From Eledone cirrhosa (lineage: Eukaryota): DNA of 64,000 bases. The notes below the pieces were generated by a model. It worked only from the letters and a program-made list of their open reading frames with translations. It was not told the origin of the DNA and made no database searches. The stretch spans positions 48,236,001-48,300,000 of the forward strand of contig OZ024750.1 in assembly GCA_964016885.1 (NCBI GenBank). Direction: 5' to 3'. Shown here piece by piece: positions 4,650 to 60,069 of the stretch (positions are counted from its first letter, which is position 1; each line of letters starts with the position of its first letter). The position numbers and the translations under genes were made by a program.

Positions 4650-5655
4650 TTGTTATACTTGCGGAGGGTCATATGTGTGTAATATTGCCAGAATTAATAA
4701 CAGAACACATTCACTGTTTGGTTGGTTTTCGCTTCTGGCTTCTGTGTCTGTCTATATATTTATTTATTTATTTGCTTGTTTGTTTATTTTATTTTGTCTT
4801 CTTTGCGCATGCGTTTGCGTGTGTGTATAGTGTTTTGTTTGCTGTGTGATGGGTGACTAGTGTGTGTTTATGTGCTTGTTGTTATTGTGCTTGTGTATGT
4901 ATATATTTATTTATTTATTTATTTATTTTATTTAATTTTCTTATTTATGCTTCTCTTAGGTCAGTGTTGTTTGTTTGGGTGTTGTTGTTATTCCATTCAT
5001 TCTTTCTGTTTTGTCTGGGTCTTCTAAGTTCTATTTCACTGGCCTCTCTGGTTTGCCTATATGTTTAGATATTATTCTAATTTCTATGTTGTCTATGTTA
5101 CCGTCATGTTGTTGTCTAGCATGTTCGTATAGTACTGACCCGTTTTTTCGTCCTTGTAGTTCCCCCCAGTGTTGGTCTATCCTTTCACCTATGCTACGAG
5201 CTGTCTCACCTATGTATGTTGTTGTCATGTTTCTGCAAGTACCCTCTGTACATCTTATGCTATAGACTACGCAAATAAACAAATAAATATATAGACAGAC
5301 TGAATAAAAATGGCGTAGACATACAATACAACAGGAGGAAATTATAGCACCACTGACGATGTTGCAGATGTGCAACGAAAGATTTATGATAAACTATATA
5401 TATGTGTTTGTGTCTATATTGCATCTGTATTATATTTGACCGCCGGTCAGTCAAAGGAAACATTGAGGACCGAGTATATTAGATTACCGATATAAAAGAC
5501 ACAGAAGCGAGAAGCGAAAACCATCAAACAGTGAGTGTGTTCTGTTATTAATTCTGGCAATATTACACAAATATGACCCTCCCCAAGTATAACAATATTT
5601 GTTTCGACACACGATTTCATATAAAAAAACCTCGCAAAACTAATTCATCCCCGCT
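4650..5655 (-). mobile_element. 5'-truncated Penelope-like element: GIY-YIG 3' fragment plus inverted pseudo-LTR
   Basis: Minus frame 5031-5265 VYSIRCTEG..TYIGETARSIGERIDQH is homologous to the 45058 ORF; terminal arms 4650-4748 / 5497-5597; (TA)n on both sides. Confidence 0.85.
5349..5390 (+). ncRNA. Minimal type-I hammerhead ribozyme motif
   Basis: acca-CTGACGA-t-GTTGCA gatg TGCAAC-GAAA-gatt-TA-tgat; stem I has one mismatch. Confidence 0.7.
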
Positions 5656-6451
5656 ATATATATATATATATATATATATATATATATATATATATATATA
5701 TATATATATATATATATATATATATATATCACGATAAATTAATTGTTCGTTCCAGTTTTCATATATATATATATATATGTACATATTTATATATATATAA
5801 GACTGGAACGAACAATGAACTAATTACAAATACATGTCTCTCTAAAGAGTTACCTCCCTTTCACCTTACCTAATCCTTTTTCTTAAATAAATTAACTACC
5901 ATCCATCATTTCTATCCCACCATGAATTACCTCCCCCTGCATATTAAATCTCGAAAAAGGGAAATCATATAAAACACCATACTACCATTTGCCTCCATCA
6001 TGGAACAACTAAGCACTCTTCATATATTAACACATTTTGATCTGCTTATCTGTAAATATTATTATTTTTTTCTTTCACATTGCCTTATTATGTTCCACAT
6101 TACGCCCTTTTTTTTTTTTTTCTTTTCACTTCATAAACTTTGTTTCTAAATAACATTATTCTTTCTGAACCATTTCCTTAACATGTTCAACACCACCATG
6201 TTATGCTGAAACCGGTAATAGACAATTATTAAATATATAAATAAAGAAATAAATGCCATTGTTAATTAATAAATATATCAACCAAGATCTATACACTTCA
6301 CACAATGTAAAATATTTCGTTTTAATCATTTTCTAACCCAGAAAATAGGGAGAGAAAAATAAAAAGGAAAAACATATATTTCTTCCTAATAATCGTATTT
6401 TTTCTCCCTGTTTTCATGTATATATATATATATATATATCTGTGTGTGTAT

Positions 6452-7421
6452 ATTCTAAGACGAACATCGAGTAGAAATTAAGAATGAGATCTGATCAAAC
6501 ATAATATATATGCTAAACATTGTTGTGGACGTTCAATTTGCTTTAAGATCATATCGATGAAAATATCAATTATTTCGATAAACTAATAATGGAGACATGT
6601 AGTAAGATGACTTATAAATGAGGGTCAAATAAAAGCCAAATGCATTTTAGACCCAAAAGATAAATGTTGTGAGGATATTTGCACTGTTCAACTGTTTTCT
6701 CTCTGAATAACATATTTCCCCATTTACATGAAAGCAAAGTACAAATGTAAAGGGCGAAAATTGGAAGTAAATTAAATTCTGTTTCTCTCTCGCTCACACA
6801 TACACATCACACAACACACACACACACATAAACACCTACACACGTACACACACATACACACTCATCACCATACGTACACCCACACACACCCACAGCTACA
6901 CACATACACACATATATATATATATATATATATATATATATATATGTGTGTGTGTGTGTGTGTGTGTGTAGCTGTGGGTGTATGCGGGTGTAGGTATGGT
7001 GGTGAGTGTGTCTGTTTATGTGTGTGTATGTGTTTATGTATGTAGGTGTTTGTGTGTGTGTTGTGTGATGTGTGTGTGAGTGAGAGAGAAACAGAATTTA
7101 ATTTACTTCCAATTTTCGCCCTTTACATTTGTACTTTGCTTTCATGTAAATGGGGAAATATGTTATTCAGAGAGAAAACAGTTGAACAGTGCAAATATCC
7201 TCACAACATTTATCTTTTGGGTCTAAAATGCATTTGGCTTTTATTTGACCCTCATTTATAAGTCATCTTACTACATGTCTCCATTATTAGTTTATCGAAA
7301 TAATTGATATTTTCATCGATATGATCTTAAAGCAAATTGAACGACCACAACAATGTTTGGCATATATATTATTTTTGATCAGATCTCATTCTTAATTTCT
7401 GCTCGATGTTCGTCTTAGAAT
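6452..7421. repeat. ~970-bp palindrome centred on a (CA)n(TA)n(TG)n tract
   Basis: 6452-6800 is a near-perfect reverse complement of 7075-7421; the same 61-aa ORF appears on both strands in the ORF track. Confidence 0.9.
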
Positions 7422-56989: not shown

Positions 56990-58828
56990 TGAGCAAGCTG
57001 AGGACGTTGAAACAAAGATCAGTGAAGCAGTTTCTGCTTCAGCTGTTAAGTCCTGGGCGCAAAAGAGGATTGGTGTAGCACCAGAATGAAGGAGGACCCC
57101 TTGATTTCACCAAGAGGGTGAAGGTGAGATCCAGGCAAATAAAAAGTCTCACAAAACTTTGCTTGGAAATCAACCAACCTTCTTGCACATGCAGTACAAG
57201 CAGGCACACATAATCTTAGAAAAGACAGAAAAGCCGCCCAAAGACAAGAAATGAGAGGACTTTGGGGGTAAGCTAGAATCCGACTTAAGCAAATGAAGTG
57301 TCGTGGCAGACCATCTACCGATTTCGTAATATGAACCCTCCTCCACGCCTGCTATGAAGAACAAATCTGGGGCTTTCTCCTCTTTAGATAGCTGCATCCT
57401 CACAAGTTGGGAAGAATACATTGCTGATCTCTTAAACTCGATCCCAACAGCATCTTCTGATGTACACTAGGTACATATGCGAGCGGTGACTATTCTCTCT
57501 AGGGCTGAGGTTGCAGGAGCTCTAATAAAGGTGTTCTCTGGCGGACTTTCATGTGACATGTGGCCTCTATCTCTGAAAACTCACCTAAGAAATGTAAACC
57601 GGGAGTGATAACACTAAATTTAAAAACGGGAGAGAAGGGAAATTGTTCCAAATACAGAAGGGGTCTCCTTCTTAAGACTTTCCCGTAAAGTGTTTTCCAA
57701 AGAGCTGCAGGGAGATGCAAGAATATTGTCATGTCAAAGATATCTGATGAACAGTGTGACTTTCGCCCCGGACGCAGCAGAGCTGACCAAACATTCACAC
57801 AGCAGCAGGTCTTTTAGAAATCGTGTGCGTATTACCAAGATATATATTCTTATTTTGATGATATTGATAATGTATAAAATTACGGTCCTTGGGACCAGAT
57901 CTGGAGAGTTCTGCAGGTGTATGGGATCGATAGACACTTCCTTGATGATCTGGTGTCTCTATAGTAATGCCTAAATATATGATCGAATAAATGGTGCGCA
58001 ATCGAAACCATTCGGACTCCGAAAAGGTTGCGTACTGTCACCTCTCGTGTACATTAATACCATAAGGAGGACTGACATGCGCCGCTGGACTGGAAGCTGT
58101 ATCACGTCAGGTGGATATAAAATCAGTCGACAAGAATATGCAGAGGACATGGCGTTACTTAACATTACGTAGGTCGTCTCCAAATCTTACTCTATAGGTT
58201 TCATGCAGAGTGATGCATGGCTGGAATGAATAACAGTACTGAGAAAACAGACACTCGTCGGTCACGAGTGATAGAAGACAGGAGGATCAATTAATTGCAA
58301 GAATTGGTTGAGCGGTGCAGTAATGAGCCAGTGTCAGCTTTCAGTAACCAGAAGGGAGTTAGGCGTAAAATCTAAAATCGCTATCTTCAACTCGTTGTCC
58401 GTGACAGCCCTTATCTATGTTCATGAATTTGGTATACTAACCGAAAGGCTACGACCGCGCATACAAGCGCCTGAAATGGGGTTCCCCCGAAGTGCTGTTG
58501 GTGTAAGGTTATTCCAAGCAGTGCCTTGCTCGGATATCAGAGTGTCACTCAAGCTAGAGCCACTACTTTTCTGAATTGAGTGATCATAGCTCCGATACAA
58601 TGGACATGTGACCGGACAGTTTTTATGGGCAAAACCAACCGACAGGTGACCAAGAAGTATACGCAGAGGAAGAGGATTTGATAACATCCAATAGATTGGT
58701 TGGTTCGATCGGCCATCCAGCTGTATCTGTTGCAGACAGTTGCTTCTGAGAGGACCCACTGGAGGGAGTGTTTGAGGACTCTACATCCACGACCCTCTCA
58801 GGAATAAGTGGATGAAGAAGAAGAAGAC
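56990..58828 (+). mobile_element. Degenerate RTE-clade (Expander/Rex3-like) LINE with (GAA)n tail
   Basis: RKGCVLSPLVY, EYAEDMALL, RRELGVKSKIAIFNSL..LIYVHE..LTERLRPRIQAPEMGF; ends GAAGAAGAAGAAGA. Confidence 0.8.
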
Positions 58829-59586
58829 TATATATATAATGTATTAAATATTATACTCTTGATTTGGCCAGAGATGAATATTTCCAGATACATTTTAAGT
58901 GTAACTTTCCGTATTTATTATTGCTATGAAATATTGATTGTTATTCTGGTATCATATCTCTGTTTTTAGCCTAAGAAAATAATTATATGCGTGTATAAAT
59001 AATACTGCATATATTTATTTTAAAAAAATCTAATTGAATTCTTCACACGCAGGGTTAAAATTATTGAAAAAATTAATTGACCCGCGTGCATATTATTTTA
59101 TTATGTTTCGCGATGACATCCCCTTTCCGCTTGATGACAGTGTGAAATTCCTCATTCTGAGACTGCTGGAATTTTAAATTTGGCGGTCATTCTGATACGG
59201 AGAGGGACCATCGATAGAAGCATTGGATATCGGTAACAAACATTTGTTTTTATATCGATGTTTGACGGGAATCCACTGATGATTTATAAGTGCCCACCTG
59301 CATATATCCCTATGGACTATGTGCAGGCTTCTACATAACTTGGACATATTTTTCCCAACTTGTAGAAAACTTACAATGAAACACTTGTTTGGAAAGGGAG
59401 ATGTATTTTAATTATGTCTCGTATAAAATAATACAACTGGCTATCCGTAAAATACATATAGTTAGCCCCCAAACGTAAAATTGGGATTATACTAAGGTAT
59501 ATCCTAATGTTTGTTGAGTGAGATGGAAGCCAGTCAGAGTATAGCTTAAAGCTTTCACTGTTAATGTATTAAATATATATATATAT

Positions 59587-60069
59587 ATACGATATTAAAC
59601 AAATGGAAACTATATTTATAAAACCATATTTATTTCATTATACATATTTCAGGGATACCATATTAAAAATATGGCACGCCTTCTTCAGATAAAATACAAT
59701 ATATAAGCAGTGTTATAAATAAATTTGACGTACCATAAAATATTGAAACTTCCATTTAAAAAAGTTGGTTTGGTAGTCCAAACCAACATTTTTACCAAAC
59801 CAACTTTTTTAAATGGAAGTTTCAATATTTTATGGTACGTCAAATTTATTTATAAAACTGCTTATATATTGTATTTTATCTGAAGAAGGCATGCCATATT
59901 TTTAATATGGTATCCCTGAAATATGTATAATGAAATAAATATGGTTTTATAAATATAGTTTCCATTTGTTTAATATCGTATATCTACTCCAAAACTTGTT
60001 GAGTGCTTTATATCAGTTATAAAATATTTATTCGTTGTAACCCAACAATTTTAAATACAACTTTTGCAT
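59587..60069. mobile_element. Near-perfect ~395-bp fold-back with an HHR on each strand (59631-59696 minus; 59872-59937 plus) and a ~85-nt tail
   Basis: Plus: TATTTTAT-CTGAAGA-AGGcATGCCATAT tttta ATATGGTATcCCT-GAAA-TATGTA-TA-ATGAAATA; (TA)n on both sides. Confidence 0.9.

What the first reader, a model, noticed from the sequence alone, without database searches (positions are those of the whole stretch)
4650..60069. Recurring two-end architecture: short inverted arm ending at site X, long arm running through X to site Y
Seen in unrelated families: 4650-5655, 20878-21073, 37357-37514, 38510-39203, 48612-49005 and 59587-60069. Both termini fuse into (TA)n at short TA-rich words of the element (X: TATAACAATA, TATCGTATA, CTAGTTGATA, TTCCTAT). 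One arm carries an extra ~60-100-nt tail. The 37357 and 59587 copies share X and Y but fold back at different points. Inference: because (TA)n is self-complementary, nicks on both strands can each prime reverse transcription at one of two fixed RNA sites. The two cDNAs would then be joined head-to-head at variable truncation points, a twin-priming route that yields palindromes routinely.
Basis: partly seen in the sequence, partly recalled or inferred. Interest (0 to 1): 0.75.

Follow-up and report, generated by a model that had tools for sequence, protein, structure and literature searches.

The report
Penelope insertions primed at paired sites
These lopsided mirror-image repeats are real insertions of Penelope-like jumping genes into TA repeats, a shape already described; nearly every two-armed copy pairs one short end with one tailed end, so the element likely copies its RNA from both cut DNA strands in one coordinated step.

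Summary
The six structures are real. They are the published signature of Penelope-like elements (PLEs): an inverted pseudo-LTR plus a 'tail', inserted in (TA)n. Four of the five families link to a GIY-YIG endonuclease frame; the fifth (48612) is a ~543-nt tandem unit with no such frame found.

X and Y are fixed per family and the junctions vary, so these are not MITEs.

The tail is not tied to the long arm (X arm longer in 38 pairs, Y arm in 23). The two start sites are not chosen independently: 130 of 135 two-arm insertions pair one X with one Y.

Junctions show microhomology or short inserts. X words overlap the TA phase by 3-5 nt. In two families the 5' ends pile up about 30 nt below a TATA-like box.

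Best model (inferred, about 0.6): both nicked strands prime, one at Y and one at X, and the cDNA ends are joined. Two start sites and two-strand extension are published in vitro (PMC11167929). The scan has already noted this architecture and twin priming in three other genomes.

The parts
4651..5271 (-). F1 X arm (the long arm): 5'-truncated inside the GIY-YIG endonuclease frame (5031-5270), then 3' UTR with a ~195-nt deletion near 4760, ending at X against (TA)n
   Evidence: (Pfam GIY-YIG E 0.0014, below the curated cut-off)
5272..5654 (+). F1 Y arm (the short arm): degenerate hammerhead-like core 5353-5390, ORF start at about 5573, X at about 5595, tail to Y at 5654; 1-nt overlap at the junction
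   Evidence: the core did not pass the stem-I test
20878..21015 (-). F2 (Hydra-type) Y arm, starting at the family 5' pile-up (-58); 79-nt tail
21016..21072 (+). F2 X arm (-56 to X); blunt junction
37359..37475 (-). F3 (Hydra-type) Y arm of an older copy, -34 to +80
37473..37517 (+). F3 X arm, -43 to X; 3-nt overlap at the junction
38508..38727 (-). F4 (Neptune-type) X arm; ends 12 nt short of the usual X and abuts (AG)33
38726..39204 (+). F4 Y arm, 63-nt tail; 2-nt microhomology at the junction
48609..48681 (-). F5 X arm (-74 to X); F5 is a ~543-nt tandem unit with no RT or endonuclease frame found
48677..49003 (+). F5 Y arm (-233 to +94); 5-nt microhomology at the junction
59582..59777 (-). 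F3 X arm starting at -192, with a minimal type-I hammerhead (core at 59688)
59785..60070 (+). F3 Y arm with a minimal type-I hammerhead (core at 59880) and an 84-87-nt tail; short insert at the junction
41046..45874 (+). Long broken F1 relative in partial tandem: endonuclease (41046-41501), hammerhead (41695), ORF start about 41863, RT (43687-44148), endonuclease (44980-45345), pLTR with X and Y. It shows where X and Y lie relative to the ORF
   Evidence: (GIY-YIG 23.6 bits, above cut-off)

Best explanation
The six structures are truncated insertions of Penelope-like retroelements (and one short tandem unit that is likely their passenger) into (TA)n, and each two-armed copy was likely built in one coupled event in which both nicked strands primed reverse transcription, one at site Y and one at site X. 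SHOWN: fixed X and Y; X+Y pairing; tail on either arm; variable junctions with microhomology or inserts; TA-phase overlap at X and Y; linkage of F1-F4 to RT/GIY-YIG frames. INFERRED steps: (1) RNA starts either at a promoter in the pLTR (5' pile-ups at -59 in F2 and -149 in F4, each about 30 nt below a TATA-like box) or further upstream in tandem read-through. (2) The endonuclease nicks both strands of (TA)n. (3) Each TA 3' end pairs over 3-9 nt with a TA word of the RNA, one at Y and one at X, most simply on the same RNA held by a dimer. (4) The two cDNAs run to the RNA 5' end or stall; the Y cDNA either displaces the X cDNA or stops near X. (5) The cDNA 3' ends are joined by microhomology-mediated repair or template switching. 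If only one strand primes, a single-armed copy results.
For: PLE identity: endonuclease frames upstream in sense in F1 (L035-37, L041), F4 (L098, L103) and F2 (8 of 20 long loci), and RT+endonuclease inside a two-arm F3-type insertion (L179). Read-through past Y enters RT ORFs. X+Y in 130 of 135 pairs (P 8e-33 against 50%), 67 of 69 unselected pairs and 48 of 50 asymmetric pairs. X arm longer in 38 pairs vs Y in 23, and 14 vs 12 among the least diverged; a Y-primed fold-back cannot give a longer X arm. 12 of 134 close pairs have a Y arm starting within 25 nt of X or inside the tail, with a clean junction, which is classic twin-priming geometry. Microhomology of 2 nt or more in 34 of 49 insert-free junctions vs 59 of 256 simulated; inserts in 32 of 81 vs 42 of 298. 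TA-phase overlap at X is 4, 3, 5, 4, 5 nt, found at 10-20% of background positions per family; at Y it is 3, 4, 9 and 4 nt. Arms of one insertion are more alike than permuted arms in F2 and F3 (0 of 2000 permutations) and F5 (P 0.02). PMC11167929: a PLE protein nicks and extends both strands, starts at two sites bracketing the tail, and is modelled as a dimer.
Against: No biochemical or RNA evidence for these families. One RNA versus two is not resolved: arm likeness is not significant in F1 (P 0.06) or F4 (P 0.15), and a shared source locus would give the same signal. Arm lengths correlate only in F4 (rho 0.73, n 14) and are negative in F1. The cap-G test of the start-site idea was inconclusive (G in 7 of 23). 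TATA spacing fits F2 and F4 but not F1, F3 or F5. The pile-ups in F1, F3, F4 and F5 rest mostly on query-selected copies. PMC11167929 found no difference in start site between strands and no primer homology, which does not by itself predict strict X+Y pairing. An excess of tail-only arms over chance was not tested. Exceptions exist: 3 XX and 2 YY, plus 2 of 22 among Y-selected F3 copies.
Confidence: 0.6

Rival explanations
1. Two RNAs in an asymmetric dimer: one protomer primes at Y on one RNA and the other at X on a second RNA, and the cDNAs are then end-joined.
For: Explains X+Y pairing, either polarity and the duplicated sequence in both arms without strand displacement. Arm lengths correlate weakly or not at all in F1, F3 and F5. 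Only 26 private variants are shared between arms against 258 in one arm.
Against: Unshared variants are expected from mutation after insertion. Tail-only Y arms joined cleanly near X (12 of 134) fit collision on one RNA. It needs a built-in asymmetry to exclude XX and YY.
Confidence: 0.2
2. Single priming at Y, then the cDNA folds back and copies itself up to X, where the endonuclease or annealing to (TA)n resolves it (akin to the self-priming and resolution ideas in PMC3846280 and PMC8557442); polarity is later scrambled by inversion or deletion between the arms.
For: Gives X+Y automatically and explains near-perfect hairpins (61 of 122 pairs start within 10 nt of each other), junction microhomology and arm likeness.
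Against: Predicts Y arm at least as long as X arm, yet X is longer in 38 vs 23, already 14 vs 12 in the least diverged pairs. One identical F2 junction occurs with the loop toward X in 5 copies and toward Y in 17. Near-perfect hairpins follow from both arms ending at one 5' pile-up. Private variants are mostly unshared, so there is little sign of exchange between arms. Solo arms ending at X are about as common as solo arms ending at Y.
Confidence: 0.13
3. Independent choice of X or Y on each strand, with XX and YY products lost afterwards because they extend into self-complementary (TA)n and are unstable or collapse in assembly.
For: Solo arms end at X and Y about equally. Perfect palindromes are fragile (general knowledge).
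Against: 48 of 50 asymmetric pairs with spacers are still X+Y. Near-perfect X+Y hairpins survive in large numbers, and a few XX and YY copies are assembled intact.
Confidence: 0.05
4. MITEs or fixed palindromic units copied whole.
For: The first F2 search returned many copies with one identical centre.
Against: That query spanned the centre. Unselected F2 pairs show 20 geometries in 23, the loop points either way, and long copies continue into PLE RT/endonuclease frames.
Confidence: 0.02

Closest known systems
EN+ Penelope-like elements with inverted pLTR and tail (Pen2a_Av of Adineta vaga, PMC3846280; D. virilis Penelope, PMC2377424; general scheme in PMC8557442)
   Same: Head-to-head inverted 5'-truncated copy, optional tail on one arm, partial tandems, hammerhead in the pLTR, C-terminal GIY-YIG, X and Y near the ORF start (F1).
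   Different: Tails are 46-94 nt rather than 30-40 nt. No readable target duplication because of the (TA)n target. Most copies are short pLTR-only pairs. In F2 and F3 both sites lie in the 5' UTR, about 93 and 49 nt (Y) before the ATG.
Hydra clade PLEs (PMC8557442, section 11)
   Same: F2 and F3: RW[KR]-like and DKT motifs, CxCx5C linker, no CCHH, CxxC and CxH in the endonuclease, insertion in (TA)n; canonical hammerhead in F3.
   Different: The F2 hammerhead core is degenerate. Placement is by motif only; no tree with named references was built.
Neptune/Nematis-type PLEs (CX2-5CxxC linker plus CCHH; PMC8557442)
   Same: [quoted passage not shown]
   Different: Neptune versus Nematis is not resolved. 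F4 RT was not seen within the fetched flanks.
Poseidon PAc in vitro mechanism (PMC11167929)
   Same: Both strands nicked and extended; two internal start sites bracket the tail; uncleaved RNA is used.
   Different: There the start sites had no homology to the primer and did not differ between strands. Here both sites carry TA words matching the target and are used one per arm.
L1 twin priming (recalled, not read here)
   Same: Second-strand nick primes internally, giving an inverted segment joined by microhomology.
   Different: The L1 second site is variable and the arms share no sequence. Here the second site is fixed, and most pairs duplicate the region upstream of X.
Non-LTR retrozymes (bioRxiv 10.64898/2026.07.22.740005)
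   Same: F5 is a short non-coding tandem unit with PLE-type ends.
   Different: No hammerhead was found in F5 (0 of 25 arms), and retrozymes are defined by one.

Membership tests
EN+ Penelope-like elements | Single ORF with RT and GIY-YIG endonuclease linked to the repeat | tested here: met
   F1, F2 and F3 link to RT and endonuclease; F4 to endonuclease only (GIY-YIG above cut-off). Pfam did not recognise the Hydra-type frames (0 families for L179 and L202); they are read from motifs and from 711 homologues, mostly unnamed.
EN+ Penelope-like elements | pLTR from partial tandems, direct or inverted | tested here: met
   Partial tandem at window 41046-45874 and at L208/L209; inverted pairs throughout.
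EN+ Penelope-like elements | Optional 3' tail on one arm | tested here: met
   Fixed X and Y in all five families; tails are longer than the published 30-40 nt.
EN+ Penelope-like elements | Type-I hammerhead in the pLTR | tested here: inconclusive
   Canonical in F3 (70 of 89 arms; 0 of 200 shuffles) and in the F1 relative at 41695. Not passing in F1 (1 of 40 with one mismatch), F2 (0 of 10), F4 (0 of 54) or F5 (0 of 25); degenerate cores visible by eye in F1, F2 and F4.
EN+ Penelope-like elements | RT groups with PLE/telomerase RTs in a tree | not tested
   No named reference set was fetched; the PDB sequence search gave 0 hits.
Hydra clade (F2, F3) | CxCx5C linker, no CCHH, DKT and RWK-like motifs, (TA)n target | tested here: met
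   Motifs read against the description.
Neptune/Nematis type (F1, F4) | CX2-5CxxC linker plus CCHH in a C-terminal endonuclease | tested here: met
   (L036, L098); the two clades were not told apart.
Non-LTR retrozyme (F5) | Tandem non-coding units, each with a type-I hammerhead | tested here: not met
   Tandem read-through in 7 of 30 loci, but no hammerhead with up to 2 core mismatches.
MITE | Fixed internal structure copied as a unit, with a fixed target duplication | tested here: not met
   Junctions vary, polarity flips, and long copies lead to RT.

The most novel reading that the evidence does not exclude
PLE integration is an obligately asymmetric double priming on one RNA: a dimer starts one cDNA at Y and one at X using TA-word pairing with the target. 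The commonest template is the short leader made from the pLTR's own promoter, so the element mass-produces hairpin insertions, very roughly 10^5 two-arm copies in this genome. That would explain the tail, the inversion and the short copies by one rule across Hydra- and Neptune-type clades.
Probability: 0.4. Interest if true: 0.65.

Novelty: new member of a known kind. Interest (0 to 1): 0.4.

Why it matters
How PLEs form inverted pLTRs and tails is named as an open question in PMC8557442, and the in vitro work in PMC11167929 leaves the later steps unvalidated. The copy statistics here constrain the mechanism and give direct predictions: strand-paired X+Y use, TA-word pairing at the start sites, and 5' ends at a pLTR start site. 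The five families and their relatives gave 25 insertions in 200 kb of unselected DNA, several hundred thousand if extrapolated to 3 Gb. Many are hairpins, so they would be a large source of double-stranded RNA (inference) and are easily mis-annotated as MITEs or microRNA hairpins.

Tried and rejected
Rfam scan: the 150 of 200 rows listed were all microRNA models below their gathering scores, nearly all on microsatellite hairpins; no hammerhead row was among them.

Idea that the F2 centre is stem II of a hammerhead directly behind a canonical core: the pattern search found 0, and the natural upstream sequence is different; rejected.

Idea that F2 amplifies from a palindromic master: explained by query bias; rejected.

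The 195-nt gap in the 4650 copy as an intron: the boundaries do not give GT-AG; read as a microhomology deletion.

5' pile-ups as hammerhead cleavage sites: they lie well upstream of the cores (F3 cleavage at -54 vs pile-up at -171 to -212). As splice acceptors: several F2 and F4 arms include the AG. Both rejected.

Cap-G test: inconclusive.

Search with a short AT-rich F3 query returned nothing (common words are skipped), so the F3 selected set is Y-biased and was kept out of the main count.

RNA runs: no RNA holder listed.

Empty-site search among 160 insertions gave one usable case (L064: neighbouring empty units carry (TA)4-7, the filled unit (TA)6 plus (TA)5). The other hits were clusters of elements.

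Hyper-edited copies as RNA barcodes: none among the arms in my sample.

PDB search: 0 hits.
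Full report
1. Observation. The window is very (TA)n-rich animal DNA. It is probably from an octopod: this rests on a recalled SINE resemblance and on the best named homologue being from Argonauta, and was not tested further. Self-BLAST with microsatellites masked finds all six inverted pairs at the stated places, E 1e-10 to 1e-179. 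I name the families F1 (4650), F2 (20878), F3 (37357 and 59587), F4 (38510) and F5 (48612). In each copy one arm ends at X and the other runs to Y. Two details fail. At 4650 the X arm is the long one (4651-5271) and looks short only because of a ~195-nt deletion. The left end of 38510 abuts (AG)33 rather than (TA)n.

2. Identity. The 4650 copy holds a GIY-YIG frame (Pfam E 0.0014, below cut-off). It is 71% identical to the endonuclease of a broken partial-tandem element at 41046-45874 whose frame passes the cut-off. I fetched 30 loci per family, 20 long F2 loci and 400 kb of unselected DNA; each search scored only 40 of 324-1641 candidates. F1 and F4 run upstream into endonucleases with a CX4CxxC linker and CCHH. 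F2 and F3 run into RT/endonuclease frames with the Hydra-clade motifs described in PMC8557442, and the two proteins are 40% identical. Pfam did not recognise these two frames. F5 is a ~543-nt unit whose Y end runs into the next unit in 7 of 30 loci; no RT or endonuclease frame was found with it. A minimal type-I hammerhead is present in 70 of 89 F3 arms (0 of 200 shuffles) and at 41695; F1, F2, F4 and F5 did not pass my descriptor.

3. Outer ends. They are fixed. Among arms at least 88% identical to the reference: F1 37 at X with Y split between about +46 and +58; F2 50 at X and 54 at Y; F3 24 and 40; F4 16 and 20; F5 19 and 19. 411 of 443 ends classed X or Y have (TA)4+ close by. The X words overlap the TA phase by 4, 3, 5, 4 and 5 nt, levels reached at 10-20% of background positions per family. 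Y words checked against read-through copies overlap by 3 (F2), 4 (F3), 9 (F5) and 4 nt (F1 relative). One filled/empty comparison (L064) fits insertion into a pre-existing short TA run.

4. Pairing. After removing edge rows, one duplicate, 4 pairs with an end inside the tail and the 22 Y-selected F3 anchors, 130 of 135 two-arm insertions are X+Y, 3 XX and 2 YY (P 8e-33 against 50%). Unselected pairs give 67 of 69, and asymmetric pairs 48 of 50. The Y-selected F3 set has an X partner in 20 of 22. Some of the exceptions are tandem read-through or a mirrored duplication of flanks. Solo calls end at X or Y about equally among unselected copies; some of them may be arms whose partner lies out of range. 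The X arm reaches further upstream in 38 pairs, the Y arm in 23, and 61 are within 10 nt; among the least diverged the split is 14 vs 12 (pairs with overlap over 20 nt or gap over 35 nt dropped). Fifteen of 134 close X+Y pairs have a Y arm starting within 25 nt of X or inside the tail. Three were set aside (one internal deletion, two wide gaps), leaving 12; an excess over chance was not tested.

5. Junctions. Of 81 junctions (arms at least 88% identical; the query-selected F2 anchors left out), 32 carry inserts, several visibly copied from the element. Of the other 49, 34 show at least 2 nt of overlap and 17 at least 4 nt. Simulated joins through the same pipeline gave 42 of 298 inserts and 59 of 256 overlaps of at least 2 nt (Fisher P 2e-6 and 8e-10). 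The overlaps come from local alignment and a few long ones include mismatches. 5' ends pile up: 42 of 66 unselected F2 arms at -65 to -52, and 18 of 46 F4 arms at -150 to -142 (15 of them from query-selected loci). In both families a TATA-like box lies about 30 nt upstream of a pyrimidine-pyrimidine-A start. F1, F3 and F5 have looser pile-ups seen almost only in selected copies and without that spacing. The cap-G test was inconclusive. The identical F2 centre is query bias: 23 unselected pairs show 20 geometries, and the identical centre occurs with its loop toward Y in 17 copies and toward X in 5.

6. Template. Arms of one insertion are more alike than permuted arms in F2 and F3 (0 of 2000) and F5 (P 0.02), but not clearly in F1 (0.06) or F4 (0.15). 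Private variants: 26 shared, 258 in one arm. This fits a common source and little later exchange between arms, but does not prove one RNA molecule. Earlier scan notes on this genome claim that A-to-G-edited copies show both arms come from one RNA. My sample held no such copy, so this stays a lead.

7. Mechanism. PLE identity is about 0.95 for F1-F4 and about 0.75 that F5 is a PLE passenger. The best route is coupled double priming at Y and X, most simply on one RNA, followed by microhomology-type joining (0.6). Rivals: two RNAs in an asymmetric dimer (0.2); fold-back with later scrambling (0.13); independent priming with loss of XX and YY (0.05); MITE (0.02). Nicking, priming, strand displacement and the start site are inferred, not shown.

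8. Literature seen. PMC11167929: parts 1-2 of 4, which cover the main text into Methods. PMC8557442: passages and section 11. PMC3846280, PMC2377424, PMC4209133, PMC8969392, PMC13282606 and PMC5625713: passages. bioRxiv 10.64898/2026.07.22.740005: part 1 of 5. No supplements were opened; they may bear on tail lengths in Hydra and Neptune families. The inverted pLTR, the tail, (TA)n targeting, the pLTR promoter and the two start sites are all in these papers. A search for Penelope + twin priming + inverted listed 2 papers on other subjects (listing only), and one search listed nothing newer on PLE mechanism. I therefore did not find the X+Y coupling in print, but Arkhipova 2006, Evgen'ev and Arkhipova 2005, Pyatkov 2004 and the L1 twin-priming paper were not read (recalled only).

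9. Verdict. The architecture is real and known, in further PLE families. The added value is a quantified constraint on an open mechanism. The scan has noted the same architecture and reading in three other genomes. Interest 0.4.

Noticed in passing
window 38444-38510; L105, L116, L079, L103; L094, L102, L104, L111: Where an end falls in a TC-rich word it is sometimes followed by (TC)n before (TA)n (F4 3 of 29 X ends; 2 F2 ends), and (TG)n lies next to some F4 5' ends that begin with TG repeats. The element end may seed repeat addition during insertion.
   Followed up: partly
window 6452-7421 and 48473-48572; L144 flanks: Mirror duplications of flanking DNA around a microsatellite: 343-nt arms at 98.5% around (CA)n(TA)n(TG)n, with no other copy among the fetched loci. 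This is a different, fold-back-type process from the PLE pairs.
   Followed up: partly
window 2806-3154, 3300-4434, 16546-17165, 18793-19196, 27300-27776, 45880-46320: Further multi-copy repeats with preferred end positions beside (TA)n, most with lopsided inverted arms; likely more PLE families.
   Followed up: partly
window 27803-29085 and 33400-35880: Decayed Hydra-type PLE coding remnants; in the first, both inverted arms reach (TA)n, a possible XX or YY case.
   Followed up: no
window 11714-15139 (-): Uninterrupted 1141-codon non-LTR retrotransposon frame (RVT_1 E 6e-23, zf-RVT), with (ATT)n runs on both sides and a decayed partial copy at 10986-11477.
   Followed up: no
window 21826-24895; 36193-39601: Long 9-nt-period tandem arrays, and 68-94-nt units that each carry a (TA)n run.
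   Followed up: no
window 31490-32258, 48609-49003; L135, L141, L143: F5 forms tandems and nested palindromes of a ~543-nt non-coding unit without a detectable hammerhead; its mobilising partner was not found.
   Followed up: partly
L186 (F1 ORF), window 42293-42853, L179: Asparagine- or threonine-rich low-complexity stretches inside PLE ORFs, recalling the N-rich inserts of A. vaga Penelopes (PMC3846280).
   Followed up: no
L001-L150: Different PLE families pile into each other's (TA)n flanks: 49 F2-like hit groups (a few duplicated) were found as bystanders in these loci and the window.
   Followed up: partly
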